IMG/VR virus record: IMGVR_UViG_2895847146_000001
Coordinates: 32,001 to 96,000 of that record
DNA: 64,000 nt
DNA from: a virus
Taxonomy: Duplodnaviria > Caudoviricetes
Direction: 5' to 3' (one strand)
A program made the translations under genes and the position numbers. This document shows positions 8,875-59,900 of this stretch, in pieces. Each line of letters begins with the position of its first letter. Positions within the stretch are counted from its first letter, which is position 1. A model generated the notes under the pieces. It saw only the letters and a list, made by a program, of their open reading frames with translations. It had not been told where the DNA came from and did no database searches.

Positions 8875-9088
8875 TGAGGCGGTGCATATACGTTCTTCTT
8901 TTTTTTGCTTGCTCTTAGTACTTCTACGGTTGCTCAAAAGTACGAGTACAAAGGGCTGCAGAACTTTCCTGGATAGTACTACCCACAAAGTGAGCTATTC
9001 CGGCGTTATCGAAGTGCCAGGCGTTACCCAAGCCAAGCTTCTCACCAAAATCAAAGCCTTGCTACAGGCAATTACCGTTCAGCCGTAG
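8874..9088 (+). pseudogene. Frameshifted, truncated secreted-protein gene (DUF4468-like remnant)
   Basis: Signal-peptide-like start broken at a poly-T run; LDSTTHKVSYSGVIEVPGVTQAKL in another frame; runs into the integrase 3' end. Confidence 0.5.
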
Positions 9089-10571: not shown

Positions 10572-10585
10572 CAAGCACTCAGATG

Positions 10586-10670
10586 CAGAGGAGGAGGGAT
10601 TCGAACCCCCGGACCTTTAACAGTCAACGGTTTTCAAGACCGCCGCAATCGACCACTCTGCCACTCCTCT
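10586..10670 (-). tRNA. tRNA-Ser(TGA), host gene
   Basis: AGAGGAG/CTCCTCT acceptor, anticodon loop CTTGAAA, long variable arm, GGTTCGAATCC T-arm. Confidence 0.96.
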
Positions 10671-10715
10671 AAAAGCATTCAACAGCCTTGGGGGCTGTTA
10701 AATGGTAACTAACAA

Positions 10716-10730
10716 TGCAGAGAGGGGGGA
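10716..10730 (-). repeat. Putative att core of prophage 2 (3' remnant of another tRNA-Ser)
   Basis: Minus strand TCCCCCCTCTCTGCA resembles the T-stem/acceptor 3' end of a tRNA-Ser and parallels TCCCTCCTCCTCTGCA of the adjacent tRNA; 130 bp from the integrase 2 stop. Confidence 0.6.
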
Positions 10731-10794
10731 ACTCAAGTTTCAGACGCCCCAGAACACTCATTGTCTTCCCGGCCACGTTCTGGCCGATTGACAT

Positions 10795-10804
10795 TGCAAA
10801 TATA
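10795..10804 (-). promoter_or_regulatory. Bacteroidota -7 promoter box facing out of prophage 2
   Basis: Minus strand TATATTTGCA matches TAnnTTTG; no clear -33 box. Confidence 0.5.
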
Positions 10805-10860
10805 AACACCTTTTTAGCTTGGTTGTACACGGTTTGTTCTACTTATGTTATACAACTGTT

Positions 10861-12291
10861 CTACTGGTTCTGAGACTCAGGACCATATAATTCATGGGCG
10901 CGGTGGGCCAGCTGGTCTTTTTCCAGCGAGCCGGCGTATCGTTCGGTTTGTTCAACGCTTTCGTGGTTGAGCATGTCGCGCAGGTCGAAAGAGCCGACGC
11001 CCTTTCGGCGGGCCATTGCCGTGAAGGAATGGCGGGCTACGTGGTTGGTGATGTGCTTCTGAATGCCAGCGTGCTCGGTGGCTACTTTCTTAATGTATTG
11101 GTTTAATAAGGTGGTCAAGGATTCAATGCGCTTGAGCAGGGCCACGTAGTGCGCCCGGAACTCGTGGCTTTCTTCGAGCTGGGTGACGCTCCAGCCTTCG
11201 GGGTATTTGGTGTACCACTCCCGGGCATCGAGCAGGGGCAGCACGAAGTCGTTTTCCGTAACGTGGCCCGCATAGCGGTGCAGCACCCGGTCCAGGCGCT
11301 CGTGGCGGGCCACGGTCTTCCACTTGCCGGTTTTCTGCTCCTGAAATTTAATGTCCTGCTGCACCGTGCGCCAGCGCAGCAGCAGCACGTCGGCCACCCG
11401 GGCGCCGAATAGATAATACTGCAGCAGCCAGGCGTCGCGCGAAACCTGGTACCACTTCTCGGCGGGCAGCTCCACGGTTTCCAGGGCCAGCACCTCCTCG
11501 TCGGATAGCTTTTCCTTTTCCTTGGCCTCCCCGGTACCCAGGCTCATGCGCTTGAAAGGGTTCTGGTGGTATTCGAGTTTGTTATCATCAATGGCCAGGG
11601 CCACGATGGTTTTGATAAAGGAGAGTTCTTTGGCCGGGGTCTGGCCCTTGTTGCCTACTACTTTTTCCAGCCACACGCGGTAGTCGCGGATAAAGGAGGC
11701 CGTCAACTCCGAGAAGGGCAACGGGCGGGCGGGCTGGCCCTCGGTCAGGGGAACCCAGCCCGTGAGCAGTTGGGAGCGGTCCGCACCGTCGGCAATCTTT
11801 TTCAGGCGGCCGGGCTTCATGCTTGGATCTATCCAGCCCCGGTACACCTTGAGCTTGTTGAGAATGCTTTCCAGCTTCTCAGCGGAGCGGGGGTTGCCGT
11901 GCACCTTGCGGCGAGCTACTTCCTTGGCAAAGTAGGCCAGAAAGTCTTCCTGGGCGGGCGTGGGCGCGGCCGGGGCCTTGCCGGGCTCGTGGCCGGCCTT
12001 CACCGCATCACGCCACGCCGCCGAAGTCAGGGTGGGGTCGTAGTTAATCCAGGCCATGGCCAGCTTGAGGCGGCGCTGAATGGTTTTGTTGAAGGACTCG
12101 GCGCCCGTGTTCTTGCTACGAATCCAGTTCGGCTTCTGCAGGCTGCCGTCTTCGTTCCAGTCCTTTTCAGGGACGGCAAAGCCCAGGCTCAGGTATTTGG
12201 CCTGGCGGTTGACGGTAAACACTAAGTTGACCGGGCGCGGCCCACCCGGTTGCAAGGCGGGCCGCAGAATGGCTTTGCAGGTAGCGGCCAT
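10861..12291 (-). CDS. int: Tyrosine integrase of prophage 2
   Basis: Arm-binding N-terminus, FGARVADV, NHVARHSF and LNHESVEQTERY motifs. Confidence 0.93.
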   Translation of the reverse strand: MAATCKAILRPALQPGGPRPVNLVFTVNRQAKYLSLGFAVPEKDWNEDGSLQKPNWIRSKNTGAESFNKTIQRRLKLAMAWINYDPTLTSAAWRDAVKAGHEPGKAPAAPTPAQEDFLAYFAKEVARRKVHGNPRSAEKLESILNKLKVYRGWIDPSMKPGRLKKIADGADRSQLLTGWVPLTEGQPARPLPFSELTASFIRDYRVWLEKVVGNKGQTPAKELSFIKTIVALAIDDNKLEYHQNPFKRMSLGTGEAKEKEKLSDEEVLALETVELPAEKWYQVSRDAWLLQYYLFGARVADVLLLRWRTVQQDIKFQEQKTGKWKTVARHERLDRVLHRYAGHVTENDFVLPLLDAREWYTKYPEGWSVTQLEESHEFRAHYVALLKRIESLTTLLNQYIKKVATEHAGIQKHITNHVARHSFTAMARRKGVGSFDLRDMLNHESVEQTERYAGSLEKDQLAHRAHELYGPESQNQ

Positions 12292-12399: not shown

Positions 12400-13134
12400 T
12401 TAGCGAATCGGAGCCCGTTCCGCGAACTCCTGGACCAGCCACATGGAGCGTATCTGGTTGCGGGGCACGGGGTACGGAGACATGGGCGTTTCCGAATCCG
12501 AGTGCAGCATCAGGAAGCCCTGGGTGGACAAATCGTTGCCGTGGATGCGTTTAATAACTAGGTATTCTCCAAAACAAATAATCACTACCCGCTCGTAAAT
12601 GGAGTGCCATTTCGCTTCGGCAATGAGGTCTGCCACCACTTTAGAGCCGTGGGGCAGGGTCTTTTCCATACTGTCTCCGTTCACTTCGAAGATAGCGGAA
12701 TTAGCATATTTGTTTCCCGGATCATTGGCTAGGGTCAGCTTGAATGTATCCAGGCTGGCGAGCGACTTAATAACATTGGATGAAGCCATTTCTGCAAAGC
12801 CCGCGCGGGCCACAATAGGTATGTAAGGTAGGTCGAGAGCAAACGCGCGAGGGTATTCGTCTGGTACAATTTTAACATTGTTTTCGACCAACGGCACGTC
12901 TCCACCGTGCAACATAGCCAGTTCGTCGGGCAATAACAATTGTTCTAATGGATAATCGAACACTTGCGCAATCTTTTCGCGCATATCACGCTTGGGAAAA
13001 CTCTTGCCTTCCACCCAGCGCGTTACGGTAGACTTGTCTACTCCTAGCATTGCAGCGAACTTATTGTTGCGCAACTTCCTCTCTTCTAAAATCCGCTGGA
13101 TTAACATATTTATGGTACTTGGCGTGGTTGGCAT
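12400..13134 (-). CDS. CI/LexA-like repressor (HTH_XRE plus S24 peptidase)
   Basis: FAAMLGVDKSTVTRWVEG HTH, ARAG cleavage site, catalytic GDSM and VIKR. Confidence 0.92.
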   Translation of the reverse strand: MPTTPSTINMLIQRILEERKLRNNKFAAMLGVDKSTVTRWVEGKSFPKRDMREKIAQVFDYPLEQLLLPDELAMLHGGDVPLVENNVKIVPDEYPRAFALDLPYIPIVARAGFAEMASSNVIKSLASLDTFKLTLANDPGNKYANSAIFEVNGDSMEKTLPHGSKVVADLIAEAKWHSIYERVVIICFGEYLVIKRIHGNDLSTQGFLMLHSDSETPMSPYPVPRNQIRSMWLVQEFAERAPIR

Positions 13135-42511: not shown

Positions 42512-45500
42512 CTACAGCATTTCCCGGAATACAATCCGGTCCGGGTCTTTCATCTTGGCGCCGACCACGGCGTACTTGGCCCGCTTGGTGGCGGCCTTGC
42601 TGATAGCGGCCATCCGTTTGGCGGCTTGGTCGTGGTTCAGCGAGCGGAAGTTCTCAATATCCTGTAACAGAATCTGCTTCAGCACTTTGCCGCGCAGTTC
42701 CAGGAACCTGTAGAACGTTTCATCACTCATGGGCCCCTCCTTCCACTGGCCGGCCACCCCGGCAGAAGCGGGTAGCTGCCCTTCGGCCTGCTGGAAGGTG
42801 AAGGCCACCGTTGTGCGCTGGTTGGGCACGGGAATGCCCACCCCTTTTTCCGTCAACACGTCCCAGATGCGTTGCGTGGCCGCGTCGCGGTGCGTGGGCC
42901 GGCCGCTCGTCAAGCGGTCTGATTGCACTTTCATGGGCTCGCCCAGCGCGTCGAGGGCCGGGCGCATGCCCGAGCGGAACACGGGCAGGTCTTGCTGCAC
43001 CACTTCCCAGGCCCGCTTGGCTTCTACTTTGTCCGTGTCGGTGAAGTCCTGCAGGTCGCGGCTGAACTGGCGTAGCAGGCCCGAGGCGGGAACGTAGCCC
43101 GTGACCGAGTAGCCCAGGGTGCGCTCCAGGTAGGTCTGCATCTTTTTCAGGCCGCTGGTTTCTCCGCCGTAGCCGCCCGAGCTGGTCAGCGCGTCCAGGG
43201 CTTCGGAAATGTTCTTGGTGGCCGTCGTTTCCACCACCATGCCCATTGTGCGGAAAACCAGCAGGCTGGCCCCGCTCACGTAGGAGTCGTCGGTTTCGGG
43301 GTTGGCCTTCTCGTACAGCTCGCGGTCTTTCATGGCACCGACCACGCCGAGCACGAAGAACAGCGGGCTTTCCTTGTAGCTGACCCACTTGCTGCCGAGC
43401 TTGACCGCGTAGGGCCGCCAGCCGTTTTGCAGCAGCTGGTTGCGCTGGGCCGAGTCGCGCGGGCCGGGGCCGCTGATTTCCAGGTTATCGTCGTCGTCCT
43501 CGCGGTGCGTGGCGGCGTAGAGGCCCGCCAATAAGGCGGTGCCCATCGTGGCCTTGGCCAGTACTTTGGCCCGCTCCTCGGCCGTGTAGGGCCGGTATTG
43601 GGAACCCTGACGCTCGAAGCCGATACCACCCTTGGCTGCCCGCACGAAGCCGTGCAGGGTGTAGTCGAGGTAGGCATTGGCCACGTTGGTAATGACGCGG
43701 GAGAAAGGCACCACCCACTTGCCCAGCGGACCAACCCGCTCTACTACGTTGCTTACGCCGGTAAAGACCACGCCCAGCGTGCCTTCCATTTCGCCGTTGA
43801 ACACGGCCCGCGTGGCGTACTGGCGGGTATCTTCCTGCATCGGCATGGGGCGGCTCTGCTCCATTAGTTCCCACACGCGCAATACCGCGTCTCGCCCCGT
43901 GCGGCCTTCGGCCGTGGCCGTAGCCACCGCGTCGGCGTGGCGCTGGGCTGAGTTGCCCAGCTTTTCGTGCACGGCCTCCCAGGTGGCGCGGGAAGGGTCT
44001 TGGCGGCCTTCCTTGGTGGCTTCTACGGCCGCCAGCTCCCAGGCCCGCATTTCGCGCAGGCCCGACTGGTAGAACACGTCCGAGGCTTTCAGCAGGCGGG
44101 GCACAAACTTGAGCACCCCGGCCAAGCGGTTGCCGCCCAGGGCCGCCACTTCCAGCGTGTTCGGCACGTCGTACTTGCCCAGCTGGCCCGAAGGTTCGTA
44201 GCCGGTCTGCAGTACTTCGGTAGCCAGCCGGGCGCCGGCCTTCAAGCCGGCTGCCAGCCCGCGCACCGGGGCCGTGACCTTGCCGCCCTGGCGGAGTACG
44301 TTACCGGTGGACAACAGGGCCTCCATGAAGGTCTGGTGGGTGTTGGCCGTGAAGTTGACCAGGTGCGTAGCGTAGGAGCTGAGCACGTTGGCGTACCACA
44401 TGGCCTGTGAGAGGTCCAGGAAGCTCACGCCCTTAATGCCCTGCAGAAACAGGTTCAGCTCGCGCACGGCCTTCTCCTTGTCCCGGCCGACGGGCGCCTT
44501 CTCTACGGCCGCGCCCAGCGTGCGCAGGCGGGCCACGTCCTGCACCGTCAAGTCGGGTAGGTCAGTGGCTTCCGCAATCAGGCCAATGACGCGACTGTCG
44601 GACAGGGGCGAAAGATTGAGCAGTTCCAGGGTTTTGTCCAGGGCGGTCTTGCCCTTTTTGCCCAGGCCCACCCGCACCCGTAGCGAGTACATGCGGTTGA
44701 GGATGCTTTCGCGCTTGGCGGTGAGCTGGCGCTGAAACTCCCTCTCCAGGGTGGCGGCGTACTCGCGGGCGGTGGCCGGGTCCAGGCCCGCGTCGGCCAC
44801 GAGCTTTTGCACCAGCGTGCGGCCTGTATCTTCCTGCTCGCTGACGTGTAGGCGCACGATGGCATCGAGCTTCAGGCTCATTTCCCGAAGGCCCTCCCCC
44901 ACTACGGCTGCCGCCTGCTTGTTGCTGTTAGGCTGACCGATTATCTGGTCTGCATAGCCGCGCAGCAGTTCCAGTAAGTCCGATTTCTGGTCGTCCGTCA
45001 GGGCCAGCTTCTGGATCTGGGCTTCTACTTCCTGCTTGCTGCGCTCCCACACATCGGCGTATTCAGCCTTGTTACGCAAGGCAGCTACCAGCGCATCCCG
45101 GTTGCTGATTTTCTTCTTGCCGGGGGCGGGTGGCAACGATTCGCGGACTTTGCCCATCAAGGTGGACAGAAGTTGTTTCACCGGGTCGAACTGGCCCGGG
45201 GCGGTGGGGGTGACTTCCGCCAGGATACGGGCGGCCAGCAGACGGGCCTGCTCCTGCGCTATCTGGTCGTCAATGTCCTGGGCAGAGTTCAAGCCCGTGG
45301 CATCGCCGCCGTCGGCCAGATACTGCTGCGTGGCTTGCTCGTAGGCGTCGCGCAGGTAGGGCTTGGCCTTGGCGCCGAAGTCGCGCACGAGTTTGGCGGC
45401 CACGTCAGCAAACTTGCGGGTGCCGGCTTCCAAGTGAAAAACGGCACCGACAATCAGCTGAGGCGGAATAGGTGTGGAGAAGGCCATTTTCTTGAATGCC

Positions 45501-48500
45501 TTCTTCAGCTCCTCGTATTTCTCGCGGGTGACCAGCTTGTTCTTCGAGCCGTAGGAAGCGGGCTCGGGCTGCGCGGCGGCTGGCGCCACCTTGGCCTTGG
45601 CCGCCTCTACGGCTTTGCTTTTCAGCGTAGCCTCCAGCACCTCGCCCTGCACCTGGCGGGCTTGTTTGGCCACGGCGCGGCCCTTGGTGCGGGTCTTTTC
45701 CTTGACCTCCTTCTGCTGGCGGGCTACTTCCTTGCGGGCCTGGTACACGGCCTGGCGTGGAGAGTAGCGGGCAATGGCGCGGTTGGCGCTGATAGCGCGG
45801 CCATACTCAGTGTTGGCCAGGGCCTTCTCCGTGTCGATAGTCAGCGCCTGCTGCATGTATTGGGCGGCCAACTCGTCGTTGCCGGCTAGGTCAGCCTCGA
45901 TGCCCAGGCGGTCCAGTTCGTCGGCCACCTTGTCGCGCACGAGCAGGCGCACATCGTCGGGCAGCTGCTGGTCCACGTCCAGGGCAATATCGTAGGCTTG
46001 GGCAATGGTTTTGCCCAGAATGGCCGCGTCCGCCTGGGCCTCCGATTCACTCAGGGGCTTGGGCGTGTAGTTGAGCACTTCCGATTCCAGGCGGGCTTTG
46101 CGCACCTCGGAAAGGGACGGGTTTCCCAGCTGGTTGACAACGGTAGCCCGCTCACCGGGCTTGGCCTGGGTGCGGCTCGTCGGCGCAGAAGCGGCCGGGG
46201 CCTGCTTGGGGCGAAACACACCCTCCTGCTTCAGCACTTGCCGCACCAGCGGGCGCAGCTGCTCGTCGGTGGCGTCGTCCTCGGTCAGGCCAGCGGCCCG
46301 GAGCTTGGCAATGGTCAGCTTGGTATTGACCACGCCCAGCTTGATAAGGGCGCGGACCATCTTCTGAATGGCAGCGGATTCCTCGGCCGAGAAGGACGGA
46401 ATACCCAGCAGCGAGGATTGGGCCACGCGGGAGCCTTTCTTGCGGGCAGCCTTGAACTCGGCCAGCGCGTCGGAAAGCTCGGCTTTGGCCGCTACGTTCT
46501 GCTCGCGCAGGCTGGGCGTTACTTTTTGGGCTGGCCCTGCGCTTCCCGTGCCAGGGCTTGCAGGGCGCGGAACGCTGCCCGTTTCTGTTCCGGTGTTTTC
46601 TCCTGAAACGCTTCCTGCTTCTGCTCTTTGGTCAGAATTACTGCTTTGCTGAATTGGTCTGTTTGCTCGCTCATCGACAAGGGCTTTTAGTTTGGTGGCG
46701 GTAGTTTCATCTACGCCGAATACGAAAGAATAGCCAGCCGCATCTGTGTAGGTGTCGGCCATACGCTGGTAATCTACGATTCCGTCGTTGGAAACGAAAT
46801 CATTAATGGCCTGCTGCACGTTGGCGTCCTCGGCAATCAAGGCGTCAATGTCGGCGTCGCTGAGCGGCACTTCCTCGCGGCTGCGAATGGAAGCCGTGTC
46901 CGGGTTGCCCAAAAAGTCCTCGGCCGATACCCGCTCCTTCTTGGTCGCTAGGCCGGTGCCGGTGCTGACCTCGGCATAGCCGGTTTCGACTATCTCCTGA
47001 ATCTTATTCAGTAGCGCGTCGGCCCGCAGGGTGTTGCGGCCTTCCTGAATGTCCTTGGCGGCGGCGGCAGCGTCGCGGGGGTTCAGGCGTTTGCCGTTGA
47101 CCTCAATGCCCAGGGCCACGAAGTCCCCTCCCCCACGGCCTGCCAGCGTCAGGGCCGCGTCGCGCACGGCGGGCGCACGGTCACGGGCCGGTACATGGCC
47201 CTCAACGGGGCTGGTGCCGGTAACCGTGTTGGTACGGGTCACGCGCTTGCCACCACGGGTGATTTTCACCGACAAGTCATTGCCCACCTCAAAGTCGAGG
47301 CCAGCGGCTTTCGCCAGCTTAGCAAGTTCAGCGCGGGCAGCTTGGCCTTTCGCCCCCTTCTTCTCACGGGTAGAAAGCTCCTTGTAGCCCGCTAGGTCGT
47401 CCAGCACACCGTTGACGCGCTCCTGCTCGGGCGTGAGGGCGGCGGCTACAGGCTGGGCCGAGGCTTCTTGCGGGGTGGCGGGTTCTTCGGTTGGGATGGT
47501 CTGCTCATCGGCTACAGGGGCAACCGGTGAGGGGCCAGCAGGAACTTCGGCCTGGGTGACAGCGCCTGCGTCAGCATTGCTTTCGGGCACATCGCCAGTG
47601 CCAGCCGCTGCCTGCTGGCTATCGTATAGCCCCTCCAAGTCGGCACTAGCAGCTTCGGGTGTAGCTGAGTTAGGGCCTCCTGTACTTTGCACTGCTGGAA
47701 GAACAGTCTCTCCGCTTGCTGTTGATTGAGCATCTATTTGGCTAGTTGGTTGTTCTGCAATATACTCCACCGGCACGGCGGTATCCACGGGTTGGCCGGA
47801 ATTATCTTCGCCTACTACACGAGCCATCTTGCCATCGGGCGAGAGGGCTACTACCTGGGCGTTGGGGGCCAATACCTGCCCATCCGGGCGTACAATCTGC
47901 ACGGGGGCTGGGTAGGCTTGCTGGGCAGCGGCTTGTTCTTCGGGCGTCACGTCCTGCGGCACCTCGAACTGCGGAGCGGTGGCCTGCGCATCCTGCACGG
48001 GCGCGTTCTGTGGGCCACCCGCGAAGCTACCAGCCGCGCCGCCGAGCAACGCCCCGGCAACGGCCTGTTCCAGTGGGTTTTTGACCAGCGCATCCATTGC
48101 GGAAATGCCGTAGCCCTTCTCCCCTTCCGGACGCAGGGCGTCGGCTAGGAGCTGAGCGCCGCCCTCGGCTTCGCCTTGCAGAAACTCGGTAGCGCCTTCG
48201 CCCACGGCCCCGGTAGCGGCCCGTCCGGCAAACTTAGTCACGACGGCGGGCATAACTTTGCCCACGGCCTGGGCGAGTGCTGATTGCGAGATCTTGCCTT
48301 TGCCGTAGCGCAGCGCCTCTTGCAGCAGCTTGCTTTGGAGCACCTGCGTCGCGGCTTTATTCTTGGTAATGAAGCCCAGGCCCACTTCTTCCAACATGCC
48401 GACCACCGGGGCCAGCAACACGGCTGTCGTCGCCGCTTCGCCCTCGGAGATACCGGCCTGCCGGGCGGCATCCTTGGTCGAGGATGCGCTTAGGCCCATA

Positions 48501-49426
48501 CCCACGGCCGAGGCCGCACCGGGGCCACCGAGGGCACCGGTCACGCCCACCTGCACCAGACTGCCCGCGCCGCCACCGAGTAGCGCCGCCCAGGCTTGTC
48601 CGTTGCCGGGGTTGTCGAGAATGCTTTGCTTGGCAGCGGCCGAGGTGGGCTTGGTGGCTGCGTCCGCCAGTTGGCGGTACTGCTCCCCGAACGCATCGGT
48701 GGCCTTGCCGCCCGTCACGTAGCGCGAGCCGAGCGGGTCGGTCACGTCGCCCGTAGGCAACTGCATCCCCTGCCACAAGTCACCGGCCAGGTCTACCAGG
48801 TTGCCTACTACACGCCGAGCACCGGGCGTACCGGCTGCGTTAAAGAGAGTCTTGCCCAGCGTGTCGAGAAAACCATCTTCTTCGGCCGTGGCTTGGTCAC
48901 GGGCGCGTAGTTCCTCGATAGAGGGCGCAGGCAGGCCCGCATTGATTTCCTCGTCGCCGGGCACGGCTTGGATGGCGTTGCGGCCCGTGGGCATGTCCGT
49001 GTCGCCGTTGTAGCCACTCAGCGTAATGGGGAGCGGCTGTTTAATTTGCTCGTCGGCGCTGGTGGGTTGTGTGGGCACCTCGGCCGGTACATCTCCTACC
49101 CCAACGGCGCCGGGGGCAACCTCCTGGTTTTCATTTTCGAGCCCCGGAAAGGGTTCATTCGAATAAGTAGGCGCAGAATCGTTGCCAGAAAGTCCTTTTT
49201 TTTTTAGGCCGAGGTCGGTAGCAAAGTCGTCAAAACTAATCGTAAACTCCTTGCGCCTTTCAGTAAGTGAAGTGTGCAGTTGACGTAGATTATCCTCGTC
49301 CTGCATGTCCTGCTCGAACGTGGGATAATCAAGGGTGAATTCCTTTTCCTGCTTGCGCAAGTTACTCCACAGGCGCTTGAGAGCGGGCTCCTCGGTAGCC
49401 GGAACTTGTTGGTTTTCGTCAATCAT
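42512..49426 (-). CDS. Large internal virion / DNA ejection protein (2304 aa)
   Basis: Ala/Gly-rich N-terminal region (EGATEFLQ), long helical body, C-terminal F...G.GP...GWRPYAVK...WVSY domain like that of podoviral ejection proteins. Confidence 0.7.
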   Translation of the reverse strand: MIDENQQVPATEEPALKRLWSNLRKQEKEFTLDYPTFEQDMQDEDNLRQLHTSLTERRKEFTISFDDFATDLGLKKKGLSGNDSAPTYSNEPFPGLENENQEVAPGAVGVGDVPAEVPTQPTSADEQIKQPLPITLSGYNGDTDMPTGRNAIQAVPGDEEINAGLPAPSIEELRARDQATAEEDGFLDTLGKTLFNAAGTPGARRVVGNLVDLAGDLWQGMQLPTGDVTDPLGSRYVTGGKATDAFGEQYRQLADAATKPTSAAAKQSILDNPGNGQAWAALLGGGAGSLVQVGVTGALGGPGAASAVGMGLSASSTKDAARQAGISEGEAATTAVLLAPVVGMLEEVGLGFITKNKAATQVLQSKLLQEALRYGKGKISQSALAQAVGKVMPAVVTKFAGRAATGAVGEGATEFLQGEAEGGAQLLADALRPEGEKGYGISAMDALVKNPLEQAVAGALLGGAAGSFAGGPQNAPVQDAQATAPQFEVPQDVTPEEQAAAQQAYPAPVQIVRPDGQVLAPNAQVVALSPDGKMARVVGEDNSGQPVDTAVPVEYIAEQPTSQIDAQSTASGETVLPAVQSTGGPNSATPEAASADLEGLYDSQQAAAGTGDVPESNADAGAVTQAEVPAGPSPVAPVADEQTIPTEEPATPQEASAQPVAAALTPEQERVNGVLDDLAGYKELSTREKKGAKGQAARAELAKLAKAAGLDFEVGNDLSVKITRGGKRVTRTNTVTGTSPVEGHVPARDRAPAVRDAALTLAGRGGGDFVALGIEVNGKRLNPRDAAAAAKDIQEGRNTLRADALLNKIQEIVETGYAEVSTGTGLATKKERVSAEDFLGNPDTASIRSREEVPLSDADIDALIAEDANVQQAINDFVSNDGIVDYQRMADTYTDAAGYSFVFGVDETTATKLKALVDERANRPIQQSSNSDQRAEAGSVSGENTGTETGSVPRPASPGTGSAGPAQKVTPSLREQNVAAKAELSDALAEFKAARKKGSRVAQSSLLGIPSFSAEESAAIQKMVRALIKLGVVNTKLTIAKLRAAGLTEDDATDEQLRPLVRQVLKQEGVFRPKQAPAASAPTSRTQAKPGERATVVNQLGNPSLSEVRKARLESEVLNYTPKPLSESEAQADAAILGKTIAQAYDIALDVDQQLPDDVRLLVRDKVADELDRLGIEADLAGNDELAAQYMQQALTIDTEKALANTEYGRAISANRAIARYSPRQAVYQARKEVARQQKEVKEKTRTKGRAVAKQARQVQGEVLEATLKSKAVEAAKAKVAPAAAQPEPASYGSKNKLVTREKYEELKKAFKKMAFSTPIPPQLIVGAVFHLEAGTRKFADVAAKLVRDFGAKAKPYLRDAYEQATQQYLADGGDATGLNSAQDIDDQIAQEQARLLAARILAEVTPTAPGQFDPVKQLLSTLMGKVRESLPPAPGKKKISNRDALVAALRNKAEYADVWERSKQEVEAQIQKLALTDDQKSDLLELLRGYADQIIGQPNSNKQAAAVVGEGLREMSLKLDAIVRLHVSEQEDTGRTLVQKLVADAGLDPATAREYAATLEREFQRQLTAKRESILNRMYSLRVRVGLGKKGKTALDKTLELLNLSPLSDSRVIGLIAEATDLPDLTVQDVARLRTLGAAVEKAPVGRDKEKAVRELNLFLQGIKGVSFLDLSQAMWYANVLSSYATHLVNFTANTHQTFMEALLSTGNVLRQGGKVTAPVRGLAAGLKAGARLATEVLQTGYEPSGQLGKYDVPNTLEVAALGGNRLAGVLKFVPRLLKASDVFYQSGLREMRAWELAAVEATKEGRQDPSRATWEAVHEKLGNSAQRHADAVATATAEGRTGRDAVLRVWELMEQSRPMPMQEDTRQYATRAVFNGEMEGTLGVVFTGVSNVVERVGPLGKWVVPFSRVITNVANAYLDYTLHGFVRAAKGGIGFERQGSQYRPYTAEERAKVLAKATMGTALLAGLYAATHREDDDDNLEISGPGPRDSAQRNQLLQNGWRPYAVKLGSKWVSYKESPLFFVLGVVGAMKDRELYEKANPETDDSYVSGASLLVFRTMGMVVETTATKNISEALDALTSSGGYGGETSGLKKMQTYLERTLGYSVTGYVPASGLLRQFSRDLQDFTDTDKVEAKRAWEVVQQDLPVFRSGMRPALDALGEPMKVQSDRLTSGRPTHRDAATQRIWDVLTEKGVGIPVPNQRTTVAFTFQQAEGQLPASAGVAGQWKEGPMSDETFYRFLELRGKVLKQILLQDIENFRSLNHDQAAKRMAAISKAATKRAKYAVVGAKMKDPDRIVFREML

Positions 49427-51298: not shown

Positions 51299-51349
51299 GA
51301 AAGATACGAAATTCTATCTTGAAAACCGGGATATAACTTCGTATCTTTC
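51299..51349 (-). promoter_or_regulatory. Promoter with 25-bp palindrome in an extended inverted repeat (site E)
   Basis: TTCTATCTTG-N5-CGGGATATAA (51312-51336) flanked by GAAAGATACGAA/TTCGTATCTTTC. Confidence 0.72.
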
Positions 51350-51360
51350 CCTTGTCGGCC

Positions 51361-51828
51361 TCACTTTAAATTTTTCAACATTCCCTCCGCCCAATTCTCA
51401 TTTGTCATCTCGTATTCAACCCACGCCCCGTCAAATATCCGCCGAATATGGGTATGTGTTTTGAGGTCAATCCAGTAGTTGCCTTCTCTCTTTGTGAATT
51501 GGTCGGCGTAAGCCATTGCGTCACACCTTGATGCTTCGTCGGGTGCGTAGAACCGCAAGTATGAGGCTGTTAGTCTTCCTTTTTCAAATCCAAAAGCCCG
51601 CAAAACCCCCTCCCTTTCGGCAGAAAACAGTATCACCTTGCGAGTTCCTTCCTGCCCAGCAAGCATGGTCGTGTCTTTCTGCCACCCATGCTGCCCCAAC
51701 ATAATATCCTCTACGGCATATTCTGTTATATTCCAGTCAGTGGGCGCCAGGGTTTTGGGCACTGCAACCTGTGCATAGGATTGACAACTTAATATCATCA
51801 ACGACAATAGGAACACAAGATTCTTCAT
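51361..51828 (-). CDS. Secreted or lipoprotein moron
   Basis: Signal peptide MKNLVFLLSLMILSC; lower GC. Confidence 0.65.
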   Translation of the reverse strand: MKNLVFLLSLMILSCQSYAQVAVPKTLAPTDWNITEYAVEDIMLGQHGWQKDTTMLAGQEGTRKVILFSAEREGVLRAFGFEKGRLTASYLRFYAPDEASRCDAMAYADQFTKREGNYWIDLKTHTHIRRIFDGAWVEYEMTNENWAEGMLKNLK

Positions 51829-51866
51829 GCCCCTATAATCGGAATAATTTCTGAAATATCAACCGG

Positions 51867-52037
51867 TTATACGGCTTTCGCCTGACGCTCTATCTCATCT
51901 TGTAGTAGAACTCTAATCAAGGCCGATAGGCTGAGGCGACGTTTCTTGGCCGCCTCCTTGGCCTGCTCCAACAAGTCGTCTTCAATCTGCATGTTAAGGG
52001 CGGACTTGCCGCTGGACTCTTTCTTGTCTGCTCGCAT
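51867..52037 (-). CDS. Ribbon-helix-helix (Arc/CopG-like) repressor
   Basis: KSALNMQIEDDLLEQAKEAAKKRRLSLSALIRVLLQDEI; likely ATG 52037. Confidence 0.82.
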   Translation of the reverse strand: MRADKKESSGKSALNMQIEDDLLEQAKEAAKKRRLSLSALIRVLLQDEIERQAKAV

Positions 52038-52166
52038 CGGTGTATTGTTTACGCTAAGGAACACATACTACATAACAACTACAAAGGTTATATAGAAAAT
52101 AAATAACAACAGGGTTGTTTTGTATATTTTTTGTAGTACATTTACCATGTATTCAACTTAATAATT

Positions 52167-52490
52167 ATGGTAAACACAGCTACAAAGCTCGACACGGTTT
52201 TCGAAGTTATCGGAAACGCAATGGCTTCCACCATGCCCGCTGGGACACTGGTTATAGCCGAAAAACTACGGCGCAATCACTGGCACAAGATTCAGAATCG
52301 AGTGGTTGTAGTGGCCGTGGGCAAGCGCCTCGTTGCGGGCCGGGTGAAGCAAAACGACCTGCGCGAGCAAGGGGTGTTCTTGCTCTACTCCGACAGCCAC
52401 ACCACGGCCGACCCCTTCCTGCTGCCCATTGCCAGTATTCGCGGCCTGTGGCTAGTTGAGGAGTTTTTAGAGCGCAAACAGATTCGGTAG
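52167..52490 (+). CDS. Stand-alone S24-fold protein lacking catalytic residues, paralogous to the CI C-terminal domain
   Basis: Gapless hand alignment to CI: 43/98 identical; GDSM becomes GNAM and VIKR becomes VAGR. Confidence 0.85.
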   Translation: MVNTATKLDTVFEVIGNAMASTMPAGTLVIAEKLRRNHWHKIQNRVVVVAVGKRLVAGRVKQNDLREQGVFLLYSDSHTTADPFLLPIASIRGLWLVEEFLERKQIR

Positions 52491-52492
52491 GT

Positions 52493-53431
52493 ATGAAAAT
52501 CTATAAACTTACCTGTCAGTATTGTGGTAAGGATTTTGAGCGATACTGGAAGAAAAAGGGCAAGCCGATTTTTTGCAGCTCAACTTGCGCTGGAAAGCAC
52601 AATCATAAAAAACAGGGGGTTGAGATTAATTGTGCCGAGTGCGGGTCAGTATTCTACCGGGCTCAATCAATGTTGCATCAAGCAAAGTATTGCAGCAAAC
52701 AATGCTATTCGAAGGCCAGGCCCAGCAAGATTGAACTTACATGCGTTTGTTGTGGAATAAATGTGACTCGCGCACCATCGCTGGTGAATGGCAGAGTGTT
52801 TTGCGGTCGCAAATGCAAAGCAATTGTTACGAACGAAGAACGCACACAGGATCTGACAGGTAAAATATATGGGAGGCTAACCGTGGAATCTTATTTTCCA
52901 ACTAAAAAACTTGGCGCTTATTGGAATTGCAGGTGCGAATGCGGTGTATTAAGGCCAGTCAAAGCGCAGTCCTTAACAAACGGAAACACCCGTAGTTGCG
53001 GTTGCCTTAGTGCGGACCTCGCAAGCCTTCTTGGCTCTAGGCTTGGGCTGAGAAACTCAAAAATGGGTAATCAAATCCGATGGTATGTCAATTTCAAAGA
53101 CAAAGAGTATCGGCTTCGCTCAGGATTCGAGTGGATATATTTTAAATATCTTGTTTCGAGGAATACCCCTTTCGAGTATGAATCAGAGGTGTTTAGGCTT
53201 GCTAACGGCTGTCGCTACACACCCGATTTTTACTTGCCAGAAACCAATGAATATGTGGAAATTAAAGGATACCTAACCGACAGAGCGGCACACAAGATGG
53301 ACTTGTTCCGTATGGTTACCGGCCACAAGCTAACAGTGCTTTATGAGAAGGATATAATAAAGCTACTCCCCCAGGGCATGACAATATCCAAGTTCTATAA
53401 GCACCATAAAAAATCCCCGCTACCAGCGTAG
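52493..53431 (+). CDS. Zn-finger-repeat PD-(D/E)XK endonuclease (free-standing homing-type)
   Basis: Three CxxCG...F/YCSxxC repeats, DLTGK.YGRLTV...CRCECG...SCGC, YTPDFYLP...YVEIKGY. Confidence 0.78.
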   Translation: MKIYKLTCQYCGKDFERYWKKKGKPIFCSSTCAGKHNHKKQGVEINCAECGSVFYRAQSMLHQAKYCSKQCYSKARPSKIELTCVCCGINVTRAPSLVNGRVFCGRKCKAIVTNEERTQDLTGKIYGRLTVESYFPTKKLGAYWNCRCECGVLRPVKAQSLTNGNTRSCGCLSADLASLLGSRLGLRNSKMGNQIRWYVNFKDKEYRLRSGFEWIYFKYLVSRNTPFEYESEVFRLANGCRYTPDFYLPETNEYVEIKGYLTDRAAHKMDLFRMVTGHKLTVLYEKDIIKLLPQGMTISKFYKHHKKSPLPA

Positions 53432-53443
53432 CGGGGATTTTTT
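53408..53443. terminator. Bidirectional terminator
   Basis: AAAAAATCCCCGCTAC...GTAGCGGGGATTTTTT. Confidence 0.8.
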
Positions 53444-53444
53444 G

Positions 53445-54152
53445 TTACGTAATCTCAGGGTAGCCCATCCAGGGAGGGCCAAGGCGAACCAACTCCCTAA
53501 CATGGGCAATATCGAGCCGATTAACAGAAAGGCACTCCTGGCCTGCGGGCAAGCCAGCCCTGTTTTCAGCGCCAGTTAGCAAGGTCAACAAGGGGCCGCC
53601 AGTAGCCTGCGGGTGGCCATAGCCAATAGTCGCCCACCCTTTTGAGGCGCCACCCTCGCGCCACCCGGCCCGCGCTTGAGCGTCCTCAAGTGCTCCTTGC
53701 TGGCCATCACTTAGATCGGGCAAATCCTCCAGTGTGTAGGGAATTGCTTTTTGGTTAAAATAGGCTTGCAGGGTACTGGCACTCATGCCCCACCACTCTG
53801 GGTGGCGCCACAGACCGTCGTAGATAAAGCCGCCGCCTTGTTGCTGCTCAAGCCGGGACTTGTGTACCGTCACCTCGTATAGGCGTGACGGGTTCAGTTG
53901 CCCCCAATCGGTATCTGGCACATTGCGCCAGATACCGATTCCATTGCTTGGCCCCAAGCGGTACTCAGTTTCGAGTCCAGCAGCGCGTTCCTGGGGTGAC
54001 ATAAACCGCGCTTGGTAATAGGCGTTTTCGACCATCAGACTGCTTGCGGGTATACCGTTTATAGCCCAATCCGCTGGCAGCGCGTCCAGATTGTAGGTGA
54101 AATTGACAAAGGTGCGCACGGGAAGCCAGCGTGGCACAGGAACGAGTGCCAT
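53445..54152 (-). CDS. Hypothetical protein
   Basis: 235-aa ORF in operon. Confidence 0.6.
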   Translation of the reverse strand: MALVPVPRWLPVRTFVNFTYNLDALPADWAINGIPASSLMVENAYYQARFMSPQERAAGLETEYRLGPSNGIGIWRNVPDTDWGQLNPSRLYEVTVHKSRLEQQQGGGFIYDGLWRHPEWWGMSASTLQAYFNQKAIPYTLEDLPDLSDGQQGALEDAQARAGWREGGASKGWATIGYGHPQATGGPLLTLLTGAENRAGLPAGQECLSVNRLDIAHVRELVRLGPPWMGYPEIT

Positions 54153-56979: not shown

Positions 56980-59900
56980 TCAGGGGGCTAAGGGCAAGAA
57001 AATCAGGTCGGTGCTTACCAGTTGGGCCTTTTCCGTGCCGGTGTAGGAAAGCGTCACATCGAGAGTGGGGCTTTGCAGCTCCCGGCCCAGGTGCAGGGCG
57101 GTGGCGGGCGTCAGGTTCGGGGTGTTTTCGTCCCGACGGAAGGCTGCCCGCCAGATACCCTTCTCCGTGACCATCCACGGGGCCAGGATGCGGCTTTGCT
57201 GGCCCAGGTCGTTGGATACGACCACGCTCCACTTCTGCGGGCTGACCACGGCAAGGGCCTTCCAGGTTTTGGAGGCTTCCGAGCCTTCGTTGACGGCTGC
57301 CGTCACCTGCATCGTTACCGGCTTGCCAAAGAAGCGCAGGCGGTCATGCTCGGGGCGGTGCTGCCAGGGCAACCCGTTTTCGAAGCTCAGCAGGTGGTCG
57401 TCATAGGCCATGCCCGCTTCGGCCGGCAAGTCCCAGAGGTCGGCAAACTGGCCGGCCCGTTCGCTGAAGACCAGGGCCACGGGCGGATTGCCGTTGGCCT
57501 CGCCAAAGAACAACAGGTAGCTTTCCGTGCCTGGGTCGTAGGCCCCGTGCACGGTGGCGCCGGCGTACTGGGCTGCCAACTCCCGCACCCGCGCCCGGGC
57601 GGTTTTGTCTTTGGCCAGCGGAGAGGCCCCGTTTTGGGCGTAGCGAATCACTTCACGTCGGCGCTGGCAGTAGTAGAAGACGCGGCCGGCAAACTCGCTC
57701 ACGGTAGCCGCGTGCTCGGGCAGGCAGCCATAGCCGCCGCGCAGGGCGTTGCCGCCGCCAATGACGCCCTTGGTCAGGGCCAGCGTGGTTTGCCCGTCGG
57801 CCTGCTGCAGGGCGGTCTGGCCGAGGTAGCGGGACTCGGCCCCGTTTTCCTGCACGGCCAGCAGCAGCGTGCCCTCGGCCTGGGTCTGGTCGGCTACTTC
57901 CAGGGCCACAATGGCGCCCTGCTCCTGCGGCAAGTCGTCCTGCGCCGTCGCGTCCCAGACGGAGAGGCCCATCAGGCGGGTGCCCTGGACCTTCACGCCC
58001 GAATAGCGCAGCAGCGAGAAGCGGCGGATCTGCTCGCCGTTGATAATGACGGGAATAGCCCGGCCGCGGGACGCATCGAGCCAGATATTGGCCTGGGTCG
58101 CCGTCGGGTTCATGGCCTCGTAGCCGTTGAGCAGGAAGGTGTCGCCGGTAAGCACGCCGCTGGTGGTGGTGTAGCGGCGCTGCTGAAAGCCTCCCTCGGG
58201 CGTGAAGCGGGCAATCGGGAAGCGCGGGCTACGCTCGTACAGCACCGACTCTTCGGAGAAGGTGACGGGCCGGTAGATTTCTACCCGGGGCTGGGGGCTG
58301 CTGATTTCGTCGCCGGAAGGGCTGACGAACTGGTACAGGGCCAGCGGCGACAGGGCCAGATACTCGCCGCGCTGGTAGAGAATGGGGTAGTCGGCCGTAG
58401 GGTCGAGGTCGGGAAAGCGCACCCGGTCTCCGGGCTGAAACTCGTAGCCGCGGCCACTGGTCTGCAGCGTGGTCATGGAAACCCACAGCGACTTCATCAG
58501 GGACGTGTTGTTTTCGTCCACGGGCACGAGGTCGGCCGAGCCGTCGGCCTTGTCGCCCCGGTACTGGCGGAGCTGGTCGGTGATAAACTGCTGAAAGAAA
58601 CGGATGGTGCGGTTCTTGGAAAGCAGGATGGCGTAGGTATAGGCCCAGGCCGGAATCTCGGCCGTCTGGTCGAGTTCGGCCGTGTTCAGCTTCCAGGACA
58701 CGTTGCGGGCGGCCAGTAGGCCCACCTGCTGACGGGGAATGTTCAAGTCCTTCAGGGACGTGGCGCCCGCGGTGCGGCCCAATCGGTCATAGAAGGCCAC
58801 GCCCAGGCGGTAGGACGTGTTTTCGTGAAAGGTTTCCTGGCCGTCCAGGGTAGGCGGGGGCTGCGTGCCGAAGGGGGCAATCTGCTGGTTGGGCAGCGGG
58901 GTGACAATGCGGTTCTCGCCCAGCTGCTCGTCGGGCGCAAAGTCTACAAATACCTGCTGGTAGGTCTTGGGCGTAGTGGCCACCACGGCGTAGTACACGC
59001 CATTGTTGAGGGCCACCTGCTGGTAGGTGCTGCCCGCATCCGGGTAAGCGCCGGAAGCCACGGCGTAAAAGGCAGTTCGCACGCGCGACTCCTGGTGGGT
59101 GCCGCCGTCGGGGTCGCCTACCTGCTCCACGTAGTCGGTATCGACCTGATACACGGTGCCCGTCGTGTTACCGGTGGGCGCACCGGTGCCCGTAATCAGG
59201 TCCAGCGACCAGTTGACGGGCGTTACCGTCAGGCTTTCCCTGCAGTCTCCAACGAAGATATGGCTACGGGCCACGGTCATGGCGCCGGCCTCAATAGGAA
59301 TGGACTCGTAGAGTTTGGCGGCGTCCAGGGCGGGAATGGCTTCGCCGGTGGTCACGCCGTAGAAGTCATAGGAGGTCGGAAACAGGCCGCTGACGCGCTC
59401 CAGGGCGGCGGCCACCTCCCACTGCGGCTCGTCGTCGCGGCGCACCAGCACGCGCACGGTTTGCACCAAGGGCGGTACCTCCGTAGGCAGTGTGACGTGG
59501 ATGTAGTTGCGCGGGTCGGCTTCGACGGCGGCGGCCGTGGTGATACGACGGGGCAGCACGGGCGAATAGGAGCCCAGCGGGGTACGCTCGCCGTTGGTGT
59601 ACTCGTACTGCAGGGCCACCTGCCACGCATTGCCCGCAATCCGGTTCAGGGTGCTGCGCACGTCGGATACGTTGGTGTTGGCCAGGCGCTCCACCCCTAC
59701 CGTGCCCTGGTGGGGCTGGCGCACCACATGCAGGGCCAGCGGGTCGGCCTGGAGTACGGCGGGAGCAAACTCCGCTGGCTTGCCCACGGGCAGGGCGCGA
59801 ATCTCCTTGTTGGCGTCGAGCCAGAGCAGCAGCCCGTCCAGGAAGCAGACGTTCTTGGTCACGGTGGCGGGCACGGCTAGCCCCTCCCATTGCAGCACCA

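What the first reader, a model, noticed from the sequence alone, without database searches (positions are those of the whole stretch)
51867..52490. Repressor-mimic module: protease-dead copy of the phage's own CI C-terminal domain under a divergent RHH repressor
Seen: the 107-aa ORF aligns without gaps to the last 98 aa of CI (12400-13134), with 43 identities counted by hand. It lacks the HTH and the Ala-Gly cleavage site, and both catalytic residues are replaced (Ser to Ala in GNAM, Lys to Gly in VAGR) while the ORF stays intact. It lies 39 kb from cI, against the late-gene direction and head to head with an Arc/CopG-like gene. The spacer has ACTACA repeats 11 bp apart (52067, 52078) mirrored by TGTATA/TGTAGT (52121, 52132). 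Known: the CI CTD mediates dimerisation and RecA contact, and P22 immI (arc/mnt/ant) is a second immunity region beside the ejection genes. Inference: an immI analogue whose antirepressor evolved from CI itself and poisons CI dimers. Alternatively it is a RecA* decoy that damps induction, and it might also act on the neighbouring prophage.
Basis: partly seen in the sequence, partly recalled or inferred. Interest (0 to 1): 0.88.

Follow-up and report, generated by a model that had tools for sequence, protein, structure and literature searches.

The report
Dead repressor-tail copy in a prophage
A Hymenobacter prophage carries a small, well-kept gene that is an old, enzymatically dead copy of the tail half of its own CI repressor, set beside its own small regulator gene; it probably binds the repressor and tunes the phage's on/off switch, but this has not been tested.

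Summary
The 107-aa ORF (52167-52490, +) aligns without gaps to CI residues 148-244 (43/97 identical, E 1e-30). It lacks the HTH and the Ala111-Gly112 site, and has Ala for Ser155 and Gly for Lys195. It folds confidently as an S24 (LexA/UmuD') domain. Both genes lie in one ~79-kb prophage.

The copy is old and constrained: identity is 0.69 at codon position 2 and 0.32 at position 3. Of 1.84 billion representative proteins, its nearest real relative is its own CI.

It belongs to a tiny group of short, Lys-less S24 proteins, with 3 close and 2 distant members. In the 3 contexts I could read, each sits beside a small DNA-binding gene: RHH here, XRE-HTH and MarR-like elsewhere. The RHH is therefore not a conserved partner. 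One relative does not resemble its own phage's CI, and another sits in a 6-kb island with no CI.

The best reading is an oligomerisation-domain mimic of CI, working like SinI, and probably a repressed antirepressor (about 0.4).

The scan has noted similar stand-alone dead S24 genes in other genomes. My paper searches found no description of them.

The parts
52167..52490 (+). 107-aa stand-alone, catalytically dead S24 domain. It is a paralogue of CI residues 148-244, with Ala for the Ser nucleophile and Gly for the Lys base, and no HTH or Ala-Gly site.
   Evidence: AF2 model pLDDT 88.1, pTM 0.79. Foldseek top hits are LexA C-domains and UmuD', TMq 0.60-0.68. Codon-position identities to cI are 0.48/0.69/0.32.
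52065..52166 (.). 102-bp divergent control spacer. It has ACTACA at 52067 and 52078, mirrored by TGTATA at 52121 and TGTAGT at 52132, each pair 11 bp apart. These are candidate RHH operators. The right pair overlaps a T-rich TATATTTTTTG stretch that may be the promoter of the short ORF.
   Evidence: No exact TAnnTTTG box is present, and no Bacteroidetes SOS box. The operator and promoter roles are inferred.
51867..52064 (-). 65-aa ribbon-helix-helix (Arc/CopG/Mnt-like) protein, the putative repressor of the divergent promoters.
   Evidence: DUF6364 3.5e-7, RHH_1 6.3e-4, CopG_antitoxin 5.9e-4. PHROG Arc-like repressor.
51361..51828 (-). 155-aa predicted lipoprotein, 38 bp downstream of the RHH gene on the same strand and probably co-transcribed with it. 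It matches no family.
   Evidence: signal peptide ending in a Cys lipobox, read by eye. No Pfam, PHROG, PADLOC or NCBIfam match. GC 0.47.
52493..53431 (+). 312-aa Zn-ribbon plus PD-(D/E)XK/endonuclease-I-like nuclease, of homing-endonuclease type. Its ATG lies 2 nt after the stop of the short ORF. Its GC is much lower (0.44), so it is probably a later insertion that uses the same promoter.
   Evidence: PHROG 374 HNH endonuclease 3.8e-15, PHROG 9019 Holliday-junction resolvase 3.8e-13. PADLOC HEAT_CxxC_PD-DEXK 1e-4. GC. Found in only 1 other of 273 family genomes.
12400..13134 (-). The prophage's CI repressor, 244 aa: XRE HTH, Ala111-Gly112, Ser155, Lys195. It is the parent-type of the short ORF and its presumed target.
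10714..12291 (-). Left end of the prophage: a 16-nt att core copy (10714-10729) and a tyrosine integrase (10861-12291). The matching core lies 79 kb to the right, outside the window, at the 3' end of a tRNA-Ser(cga).

Best explanation
The 107-aa protein is a detached, protease-dead copy of the oligomerisation (S24) domain of this prophage's CI repressor. It has been kept as a working protein for a long time.

The most likely mechanism is as follows. It pairs with CI monomers through the same C-terminal-domain surface that CI uses to dimerise. The mixed dimers carry only one DNA-binding head, so operator occupancy falls. That makes it an antirepressor that works like SinI on SinR.

Because such a protein would endanger lysogeny, its promoter is held down by the divergently transcribed RHH protein, which would bind the 11-bp-spaced ACTACA/TGTAGT repeats. 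The topology resembles Mnt over Pant in phage P22 immI. The cassette points against the late operon, so it can only be expressed in the lysogen or early after infection.

Shown:
- paralogy with CI
- loss of the catalytic and cleavage features
- the S24 fold
- purifying selection
- residence in the same prophage
- a small family with the same losses
- a small DNA-binding gene next to every member whose context I could read

Inferred: binding to CI, derepression as the outcome, the RHH as repressor, and the repeats as operators.
For: - 43/97 identities to CI 148-244 with no gaps, E 1e-30. The C-terminal 12-residue block is the best conserved, 8/12.
- Own CI is the best real hit of 50 hits in 1.84 billion representatives. 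P0002, ranked above it, is a 17-repeat S-layer-type artefact.
- In the own genome there are 8 PF00717 matches, but only CI resembles the short ORF: 2.3e-23 against a next best of 0.45.
- Identity to cI by codon position is 0.48/0.69/0.32. The longest identical nucleotide run is 8, and 16 of 43 identical residues use the same codon. This is old paralogy under protein-level constraint, not a recent or decaying copy.
- AF2 pLDDT is 88.1. Foldseek gives LexA CTD and UmuD'.
- Lys is lost in all 5 short relatives: Gly in 4 and Ala in 1. Every one of the proteins of 187 aa or more in the same 81-row table keeps Lys.
- A small DNA-binding gene is adjacent in 3 of 3 readable contexts. A dedicated regulator fits a product that must be restrained.
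- Precedent for the mechanism: SinI mimics the SinR oligomerisation domain, and AimX blocks AimC oligomerisation (passages read in bioRxiv 10.1101/2025.11.23.689978).
Against:
- The G120 relative shows no BLAST similarity to its own prophage's CI.
- The G101 relative lies in a 6.4-kb integrase island in a genome with no other match at E<=1e-5. The family as a whole is therefore not a set of cognate-CI mimics.
- The RHH partner is not conserved (1 of 3 contexts).
- The spacer repeat is only weakly beyond chance (11 of 100 shuffles), and no clean promoter box was found.
- The family is tiny. Searching 5.8 billion clusters with the three-sequence profile A2 (query, P0007, P0008) returned only those three and one doubtful 90-aa protein.
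- The short ORF lacks the first strands of the CI C-terminal domain (CI residues about 100-147), which could matter for pairing.
Confidence: 0.4

Rival explanations
1. Induction damper. The dead domain protects CI from RecA*-stimulated self-cleavage. It could do so by occupying the RecA* filament site (decoy), or by taking CI's cleavage-site loop into its own empty, uncharged active-site cleft (a pseudo-protease substrate trap). Either way it would stabilise lysogeny, as Hex does for phage 434.
For: - Ser and Lys are replaced by small residues (Ala/Gly) rather than random ones. Lys is Gly in 4 of 5 short relatives, which suggests selection for an open, uncharged cleft.
- The protein keeps the catalytic-core part of the fold but lacks its own cleavage loop.
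- Hex of phage 434 shows that prophages do encode small proteins that block RecA-stimulated repressor cleavage (PMC3564112, abstract and discussion read).
- From recall, not from a call: LexA structures show the cleavage loop docking more readily when the Lys charge is removed, and LexA/CI cores can cleave in trans.
Against: - Hex is co-transcribed with cI from PRM. This gene is 39 kb from cI, under its own divergent regulator and antisense to the late operon, which is odd for a lysogeny-maintenance factor.
- No SOS box (CTAA-N5-TTAG or GGA-N5-TCC, motifs from PMC8565304) lies in the spacer.
- No RecA-contact data are available.
Confidence: 0.2
2. A function that does not involve CI. The short S24 domain could be a detachable oligomerisation or co-regulator subunit for the small DNA-binding protein encoded beside it, forming a two-piece repressor. 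Or it could be a protein-binding module for another phage or host partner.
For: - In 3 of 3 contexts a small DNA-binding gene is adjacent.
- In G120 the neighbour is a 120-aa HTH protein 38% identical to the N-terminal domain of that prophage's CI (6e-16), while the short S24 protein is unrelated to that CI's tail. This looks like a CI-type repressor in two pieces.
- The short proteins hit each other as well as, or better than, they hit CIs, and fall on one side of a branch in the tree, though with support of only 40.
Against: - The three neighbours have three different folds (RHH, XRE-HTH, MarR-like), two of which dimerise on their own. A conserved physical partnership is therefore unlikely.
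- In the window the nearest relative of the ORF is clearly its own CI.
Confidence: 0.2
3. A leftover. The ORF is the surviving 3' part of a second, broken CI-type gene and has no function of its own.
For: - Short S24-only gene calls can be artefacts. P0024 is just the C-terminal part of a 274-aa frame.
- A scan note on another genome (e1-2979534) concluded that two S24-only genes were leftovers.
- The public gene call here is a shorter 85-aa version.
Against: - Third codon positions are saturated while second positions are conserved. The frame is intact and folds confidently.
- No HTH remnant can lie upstream, because the 102-bp spacer abuts the RHH gene.
- Relatives of similar length with the same Lys loss exist in two other genomes and in two or three metagenomic records.
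Confidence: 0.08

Closest known systems
C-terminal (Peptidase S24, PF00717) domain of lambda CI / LexA / UmuD'
   Same: Same fold: Foldseek top hits are LexA C-domains and UmuD', TMq 0.60-0.68. It is 43/97 identical to the S24 domain of the prophage's own CI. It shares the conserved core residues W39, R59, N63, L73, D76 and W95.
   Different: No Ser nucleophile, no Lys base, no Ala-Gly cleavage site, and no DNA-binding domain. It falls below the Pfam cut-off (14.1 against 23.3 bits). It starts about 9 residues before the Ser motif, so it lacks the cleavage-loop strands.
Phage P22 immI region (mnt | arc-ant)
   Same: A second regulatory cassette set among late virion genes, far from cI. An RHH gene is transcribed divergently from the effector operon across a short spacer with repeated words. 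A membrane-directed accessory gene lies beside the RHH gene. The P22 gene order is recalled; related scan notes are e1-456135 and e1-492269.
   Different: No Ant/KilAC/Bro-type antirepressor gene is present. The effector candidate is a CI-tail paralogue. Only one RHH gene is present. No sar-like RNA was examined. The RHH is not conserved with the family (1 of 3 contexts). In the P22-like cassettes noted by the scan, the dead S24 protein keeps its HTH and acts as the repressor, whereas here the HTH is absent.
SinI/SinR of Bacillus subtilis, and AimX/AimC of arbitrium phages
   Same: The principle is the same: a small protein that resembles or covers the repressor's oligomerisation domain, forms a heterodimer and prevents operator binding (bioRxiv 10.1101/2025.11.23.689978, passages read). 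Here the small protein is homologous to the repressor's oligomerisation domain and lacks the DNA-binding domain.
   Different: Those are small helical domains. This one is a beta-rich S24 pseudo-protease. No interaction has been shown here.
Hex of phage 434
   Same: A small prophage-encoded protein that modulates RecA-stimulated repressor autocleavage, specific to its own repressor type (PMC3564112, abstract and discussion read).
   Different: Hex is co-transcribed with cI and, in the parts of the paper I read, is not described as an S24 domain. This gene is 39 kb from cI and has its own regulator.
Stand-alone dead S24 genes noted by this scan in other phages (e1-5955619, e1-6001716, e1-3598975, e1-5348199, e1-6127615)
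   Same: All are HTH-less, Ser/Lys-less copies of a repressor's S24 domain in phage genomes. One (e1-6001716) is also divergent from an Arc-like gene.
   Different: They are on other DNA, share no short words with this ORF, and mostly lie beside cI or behind a LexA box rather than in the late region. These are AI notes that I did not test.

Membership tests
Peptidase S24 (LexA/CI/UmuD autoproteases) | S24 beta-fold | tested here: met
   AF2 pLDDT 88.1. Foldseek best hits are LexA C-domains and UmuD', prob 1.00, TMq 0.60-0.68, E 2e-3 to 4e-2.
Peptidase S24 (LexA/CI/UmuD autoproteases) | Ser nucleophile and Lys general base | tested here: not met
   GNAM and VAGR at the columns where CI and most relatives have GDSM and V(I/V)KR.
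Peptidase S24 (LexA/CI/UmuD autoproteases) | Ala-Gly (or Cys-Gly) self-cleavage site upstream of the core | tested here: not met
   The ORF begins at the equivalent of CI residue ~138-148. CI's A111-G112 has no counterpart.
Peptidase S24 (LexA/CI/UmuD autoproteases) | Pfam PF00717 gathering score | tested here: not met
   14.1 bits against a cut-off of 23.3, E 0.038.
P22 immI-type antirepressor module | RHH repressor transcribed divergently from the effector operon, with operator repeats in the spacer | tested here: inconclusive
   The RHH gene and the geometry are present. The repeats are present but only weakly beyond chance. No binding data.
P22 immI-type antirepressor module | Ant-family (ANT/KilAC/Bro-N) antirepressor gene | tested here: not met
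   No such Pfam or PHROG match in the four cassette genes.
Oligomerisation-domain-mimic antirepressors (SinI type) | Homology to the repressor's oligomerisation domain, without a DNA-binding domain | tested here: met
   43/97 identities to the CI C-terminal domain. No HTH.
Oligomerisation-domain-mimic antirepressors (SinI type) | Forms a heteromer with the repressor and lowers its DNA binding | not testable with these tools
Type II toxin-antitoxin pair with RHH antitoxin | RHH antitoxin and toxin in one operon, with the toxin in a known family | tested here: not met
   The RHH gene is divergent from the S24 ORF. The gene downstream of the RHH gene is a signal-peptide lipoprotein with no toxin family match.
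Known anti-phage defence systems (PADLOC) | Match of cassette proteins to a defence-system model | tested here: not met
   Only a weak PD-DEXK-domain match (1e-4) for the 312-aa nuclease. Nothing for the other 5 of 6 proteins scanned.

The most novel reading that the evidence does not exclude
A temperate phage built a second immunity switch out of its own repressor gene. A duplicated CI tail lost its DNA-binding head, its cleavage site and its catalytic dyad, and became a SinI-like 'microprotein' antirepressor, or a pseudo-protease that traps CI's cleavage loop. It is held off by a Mnt-like RHH repressor. Relatives on a satellite-like 6-kb island would use the same trick to derepress helper prophages. 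That would make S24-derived repressor mimics a distinct, naturally occurring class of lysis-lysogeny regulators.
Probability: 0.3. Interest if true: 0.75.

Novelty: new variant of a known kind. Interest (0 to 1): 0.52.

Why it matters
If the protein does pair with CI, it would be a natural example of a repressor being antagonised, or shielded, by a dead copy of its own oligomerisation/protease domain. That principle is known from SinI/SinR and from engineered C-terminal fragments of phage repressors. The papers I could search do not describe it for S24-type phage repressors.

It would add a new route to prophage induction, or to anti-immunity between related phages. It would also give a simple rule for finding such regulators: HTH-less, Ser/Lys-less S24 genes in phages. 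And it would explain the similar orphan genes this scan has met in other phage genomes.

Its reach is limited by the very small size of this particular family and by the non-model host.

Tried and rejected
Related phages. I searched for related phages to see the cassette's insertion site. The flanking 235-aa protein is found in 0 of 164 other genomes of the genus at E<=1e-10. The 312-aa nuclease is found in 1 of 273 family genomes, as a partial match only. The phages collection has no match to the short ORF. The 1072-aa virion protein gives only 21% identity over a third of its length, to Flavobacterium podophages. No comparative view of the slot was possible.

More family members.
- The single-protein word search found only the ORF itself.
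- The profile search found 4 proteins.
- The genome-contig scan gave 2 loci, both full-length CI-like genes.
- Viral contigs gave none.
- Metagenome contigs gave none with P0008, and one full-length 231-aa CI-like gene with the profile.

Other searches.
- PDB sequence search with the mixed alignment A3 returned only HTH matches and was useless for the S24 part.
- SOS wiring: no CTAA-N5-TTAG or GGA-N5-TCC within one mismatch that looks like a box in the spacer.
- Bacteroidetes-type promoter: no exact TAnnTTTG in 51800-52260 on either strand, only relaxed T-rich matches at 52123-52137. That consensus is recalled, not from a call.
- Sigma-70-type scan: 6 promoter-like sites in 51300-53600, against 3.4 +/- 2.0 expected, and none in the spacer.
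- Expression: no sequencing run was listed for 51300-53500, and no RNA holder was listed.

Phylogeny. It cannot decide the origin. The quick tree puts the query with P0007 and P0008 (SH-aLRT 83). A tree that holds the query with its own CI and P0004 has a higher likelihood (by 13.2) and is not rejected (p-AU 0.76).

Rejected readings. I rejected a TA pair, a known defence system and an Ant-type antirepressor (see Membership tests). P0002, a 2218-aa top hit, is a repeat-summed artefact.

Literature. Searches found no paper on a stand-alone dead S24 domain acting on a phage repressor. Subscription journals and supplements were not searchable, so this is not proof of absence.

Tally note. The 101-of-274 tally includes the unpublished genome G126. 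No specific claim rests on it.
Full report
**1. What is there**

The window holds an integrase (10861-12291, -) and a CI-type repressor (12400-13134, -; 244 aa). CI has an XRE HTH, Ala111-Gly112, Ser155 in GDSM and Lys195 in VIKR. Plus-strand early genes run to about 30 kb. Four tRNA genes lie at 30.4-30.9 kb. From 31 kb to the window's end runs a minus-strand block of large virion-type genes.

A 16-nt word at 10714 recurs 79 kb to the right, just outside the window. There it sits exactly at the 3' end of a tRNA-Ser(cga), and a second 18/19 repeat lies nearby. By chance such a 16-mer match would be expected about 0.06 times (my own arithmetic), and its position at a tRNA end beside an integrase makes it a credible att pair. 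cI and the finding therefore lie in one prophage of about 79 kb.

Left of it is another element, with its own integrase (9079-10374) next to tRNA-Ser(tga) and a GH19-type lysin gene.

**2. The cassette**

The cassette lies at 51.3-53.4 kb and is the only plus-strand coding in the late block. GC falls to 0.49-0.51 there, against about 0.6 around it.

- Leftwards: a 65-aa RHH gene (51867-52064), then 38 bp later a 155-aa lipoprotein-like gene (51361-51828).
- Rightwards: the 107-aa ORF (52167-52490), then 2 nt later a 312-aa Zn-ribbon/PD-(D/E)XK nuclease of homing-endonuclease type.

The genes differ in composition. The short ORF has GC 0.556 and GC3 0.68, which is phage-like. The nuclease has GC 0.442 and the lipoprotein gene 0.470. 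The short ORF therefore looks native, and the nuclease looks like a later insertion behind it.

**3. Check of the observation**

BLASTP gives 43/97 identities without gaps, E 1e-30. The motif columns read GNAM and VAGR against CI's GDSM and VIKR.

Statistically the tandem word is weak on its own: 1 match found, 0.12 expected, and 11 of 100 shuffles reach it.

**4. Is it a real, functional protein?**

Yes, most likely.

- Aligned codon by codon to cI, identity is 0.48, 0.69 and 0.32 at positions 1, 2 and 3. The longest identical nucleotide run is 8, and only 16 of 43 identical residues share a codon. Silent sites are saturated while the protein is conserved. The two genes parted long ago and both stayed under selection, and there is no sign of recent gene conversion.
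- With a 50-row alignment, AlphaFold2 gives pLDDT 88.1 and pTM 0.79. The model's best PDB matches are LexA C-domains and UmuD'.
- The public gene call is an 85-aa version. The 22 residues before its start align with CI and with relatives, so I keep the 107-aa start.

**5. Relatives**

An exhaustive HMMER search of 1.84 billion representatives gave 50 hits at E<=1e-3. After the ORF itself and a repeat artefact (P0002), the best hit is the prophage's own CI, followed by a 242-aa CI (P0004).

Two short proteins, P0007 (119 aa) and P0008 (129 aa), are close relatives. P0007 has TNAM and LCGR, the same Ser-to-Ala and Lys-to-Gly changes. P0008 keeps the Ser but has Ala for the Lys.

Two more distant short proteins also lack the Lys: P0026 (KIGR), and an ORF in genome G120 (TDLM, IIGR).

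In the 81-row motif table, Lys is absent only from these five short proteins, plus one Lys-to-Arg case (P0041). Loss of the Ser also occurs in several full-length HTH-S24 proteins.

The family is very small. The three-sequence profile A2 (query, P0007, P0008) finds only those three and one doubtful 90-aa protein in 5.8 billion clusters. Among 274 genomes of the bacterial family, 101 have an S24 match. Only G000, G101 and G120 have it in a short frame, apart from one frame cut by a contig end. All others lie in frames of 224 aa or more.

At least one 'short but active' database protein (P0024) is merely the end of a 274-aa frame.

**6. Origin**

The quick tree joins the query with P0007 and P0008 (support 83). 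It places them, the own-CI/P0004 pair (95) and the rest in a polytomy. All five short proteins fall on one side of a branch, with support of only 40.

Forcing the query together with its own CI and P0004 gives a better likelihood and is not rejected (p-AU 0.76). The data therefore fit either a single origin of the short family from this CI subgroup or a separate origin of the window's copy. They cannot tell the two apart.

**7. Contexts of the relatives**

In G101 (named by NCBI as Hymenobacter sp. DG01), P0007 sits at the end of a 6.4-kb island next to tRNA-Met. The island carries an integrase, an Xis-type HTH gene, an HNH/NUMOD3 endonuclease, a Lar-like gene and, directly upstream on the same strand, a weak MarR-like gene. 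That genome has no other match at E<=1e-5, so there is no close CI there.

In G120 the short gene lies in a prophage of about 50 kb, directly upstream of the 1500-aa tape-measure gene. It is divergent from a 120-aa XRE-HTH gene and 25 kb from that prophage's CI. The G120 short protein has no BLAST similarity to its own CI. The neighbouring HTH protein, however, is 38% identical to that CI's N-terminal domain (6e-16).

So two things recur:
- a small DNA-binding gene next door, in 3 of 3 contexts
- placement in the late region of a prophage that also has an S24-type CI, in 2 of 3

Two things do not recur: the RHH partner, and resemblance to the cognate CI.

**8. Mechanism**

The window's protein keeps the part of CI that carries the fold core and the C-terminal strand. 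The last 12-residue block is the most conserved, 8 of 12. From recall, S24 repressors dimerise through this domain, and over-produced C-terminal fragments of phage repressors are negatively dominant.

In its own genome the short ORF resembles only its own CI: 2.3e-23, against 0.45 for the next hit, although 8 S24 domains are present. This makes CI the one plausible homotypic partner.

A gene with its own divergent regulator, pointing against the late operon, fits a product that must be kept off. That favours an antirepressor over a maintenance factor such as Hex, which rides on the cI transcript (PMC3564112). SinI/SinR and AimX/AimC show that blocking a repressor's oligomerisation domain is a working strategy.

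The alternative is protection of CI from RecA*-stimulated cleavage, either as a decoy or by trapping the cleavage loop in an emptied cleft. It is supported by the non-random small-residue replacements (Lys to Gly in 4 of 5). I rate it lower, because of the gene's placement and the lack of any SOS box.

A role unrelated to CI is kept alive by the G120 and G101 contexts.

**9. Comparison and novelty**

By fold the protein is an S24 domain, but it fails the catalytic, cleavage-site and Pfam-score tests. It is an S24-fold pseudo-protease, not a peptidase.

The cassette resembles P22 immI in layout only, and has no Ant-type gene.

The closest mechanistic relatives are SinI-type mimics.

The scan has noted stand-alone dead S24 genes in several other phage genomes. 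None of them shares short words with this one, so the idea is not unique to this window. My five literature searches found no published description, within the limits of the library.

I class it as a new variant of a known kind. It is interesting and testable, but at present it is a hypothesis resting on paralogy and context.

Noticed in passing
L038 8847-9209 (+) and 8401-8757 (-); G120:C1 about 1,129,000-1,179,400: In a second Hymenobacter prophage, a 120-aa HTH protein 38% identical to the N-terminal domain of that phage's CI sits head to head with a dead stand-alone S24 protein, directly upstream of the tape-measure gene. The pair looks like a CI-type repressor in two separate genes, or a Cro-like competitor plus a tail mimic.
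   Followed up: partly
L037 4367-10817 (G101): A 6.4-kb integrase island ending at tRNA-Met. It carries an Xis-type HTH gene, 366-aa and 307-aa unknowns, an HNH/NUMOD3 endonuclease, a Lar-like gene, a MarR-like gene and the dead S24 gene P0007. Its size and content are satellite-like. A tail-mimic antirepressor on a satellite would recall P4 epsilon acting on the P2 repressor (recalled).
   Followed up: partly
window 10714-10729 and 79 kb to the right (outside the window); also 10835-10853: A 16-nt direct repeat marks the prophage ends at the 3' end of tRNA-Ser(cga). A second 18/19 repeat lies near both ends and may be an integrase arm site. A different element, with its own integrase (9079-10374), abuts tRNA-Ser(tga) at 10585-10670, so two integrated elements sit back to back.
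   Followed up: partly
window 52493-53431: A low-GC (0.44) nuclease gene of homing-endonuclease type with repeated CxxC Zn-ribbons starts 2 nt after the dead S24 gene. The G101 relative also has an HNH endonuclease about 1 kb upstream. Whether endonuclease genes help move this gene around is unknown.
   Followed up: no
window 42512-49426 and 56980-60198: A 2304-aa protein with a weak DarB-like match, and a 1072-aa virion protein with a weak crAss 'muzzle' C-terminal match and 21% identity to structural proteins of Flavobacterium podophages. The prophage looks like a large, poorly charted podovirus-type phage.
   Followed up: no
table (L035, L021, L032, L011, P0009, P0010, P0022, P0046): Several full-length HTH-S24 repressors of Hymenobacter and relatives have lost the Ser nucleophile (Leu, Met, Ala, Asn, Thr, Asp) but keep the Lys. 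Non-cleavable CI-type repressors therefore seem common in this group.
   Followed up: no
(ESM Atlas): Clusters of 84-100-aa hypothetical proteins with 74-185 members, some from phages and partly carrying PF00717, are the nearest by language-model features. Short S24-only proteins may be much more widespread than this small family.
   Followed up: no
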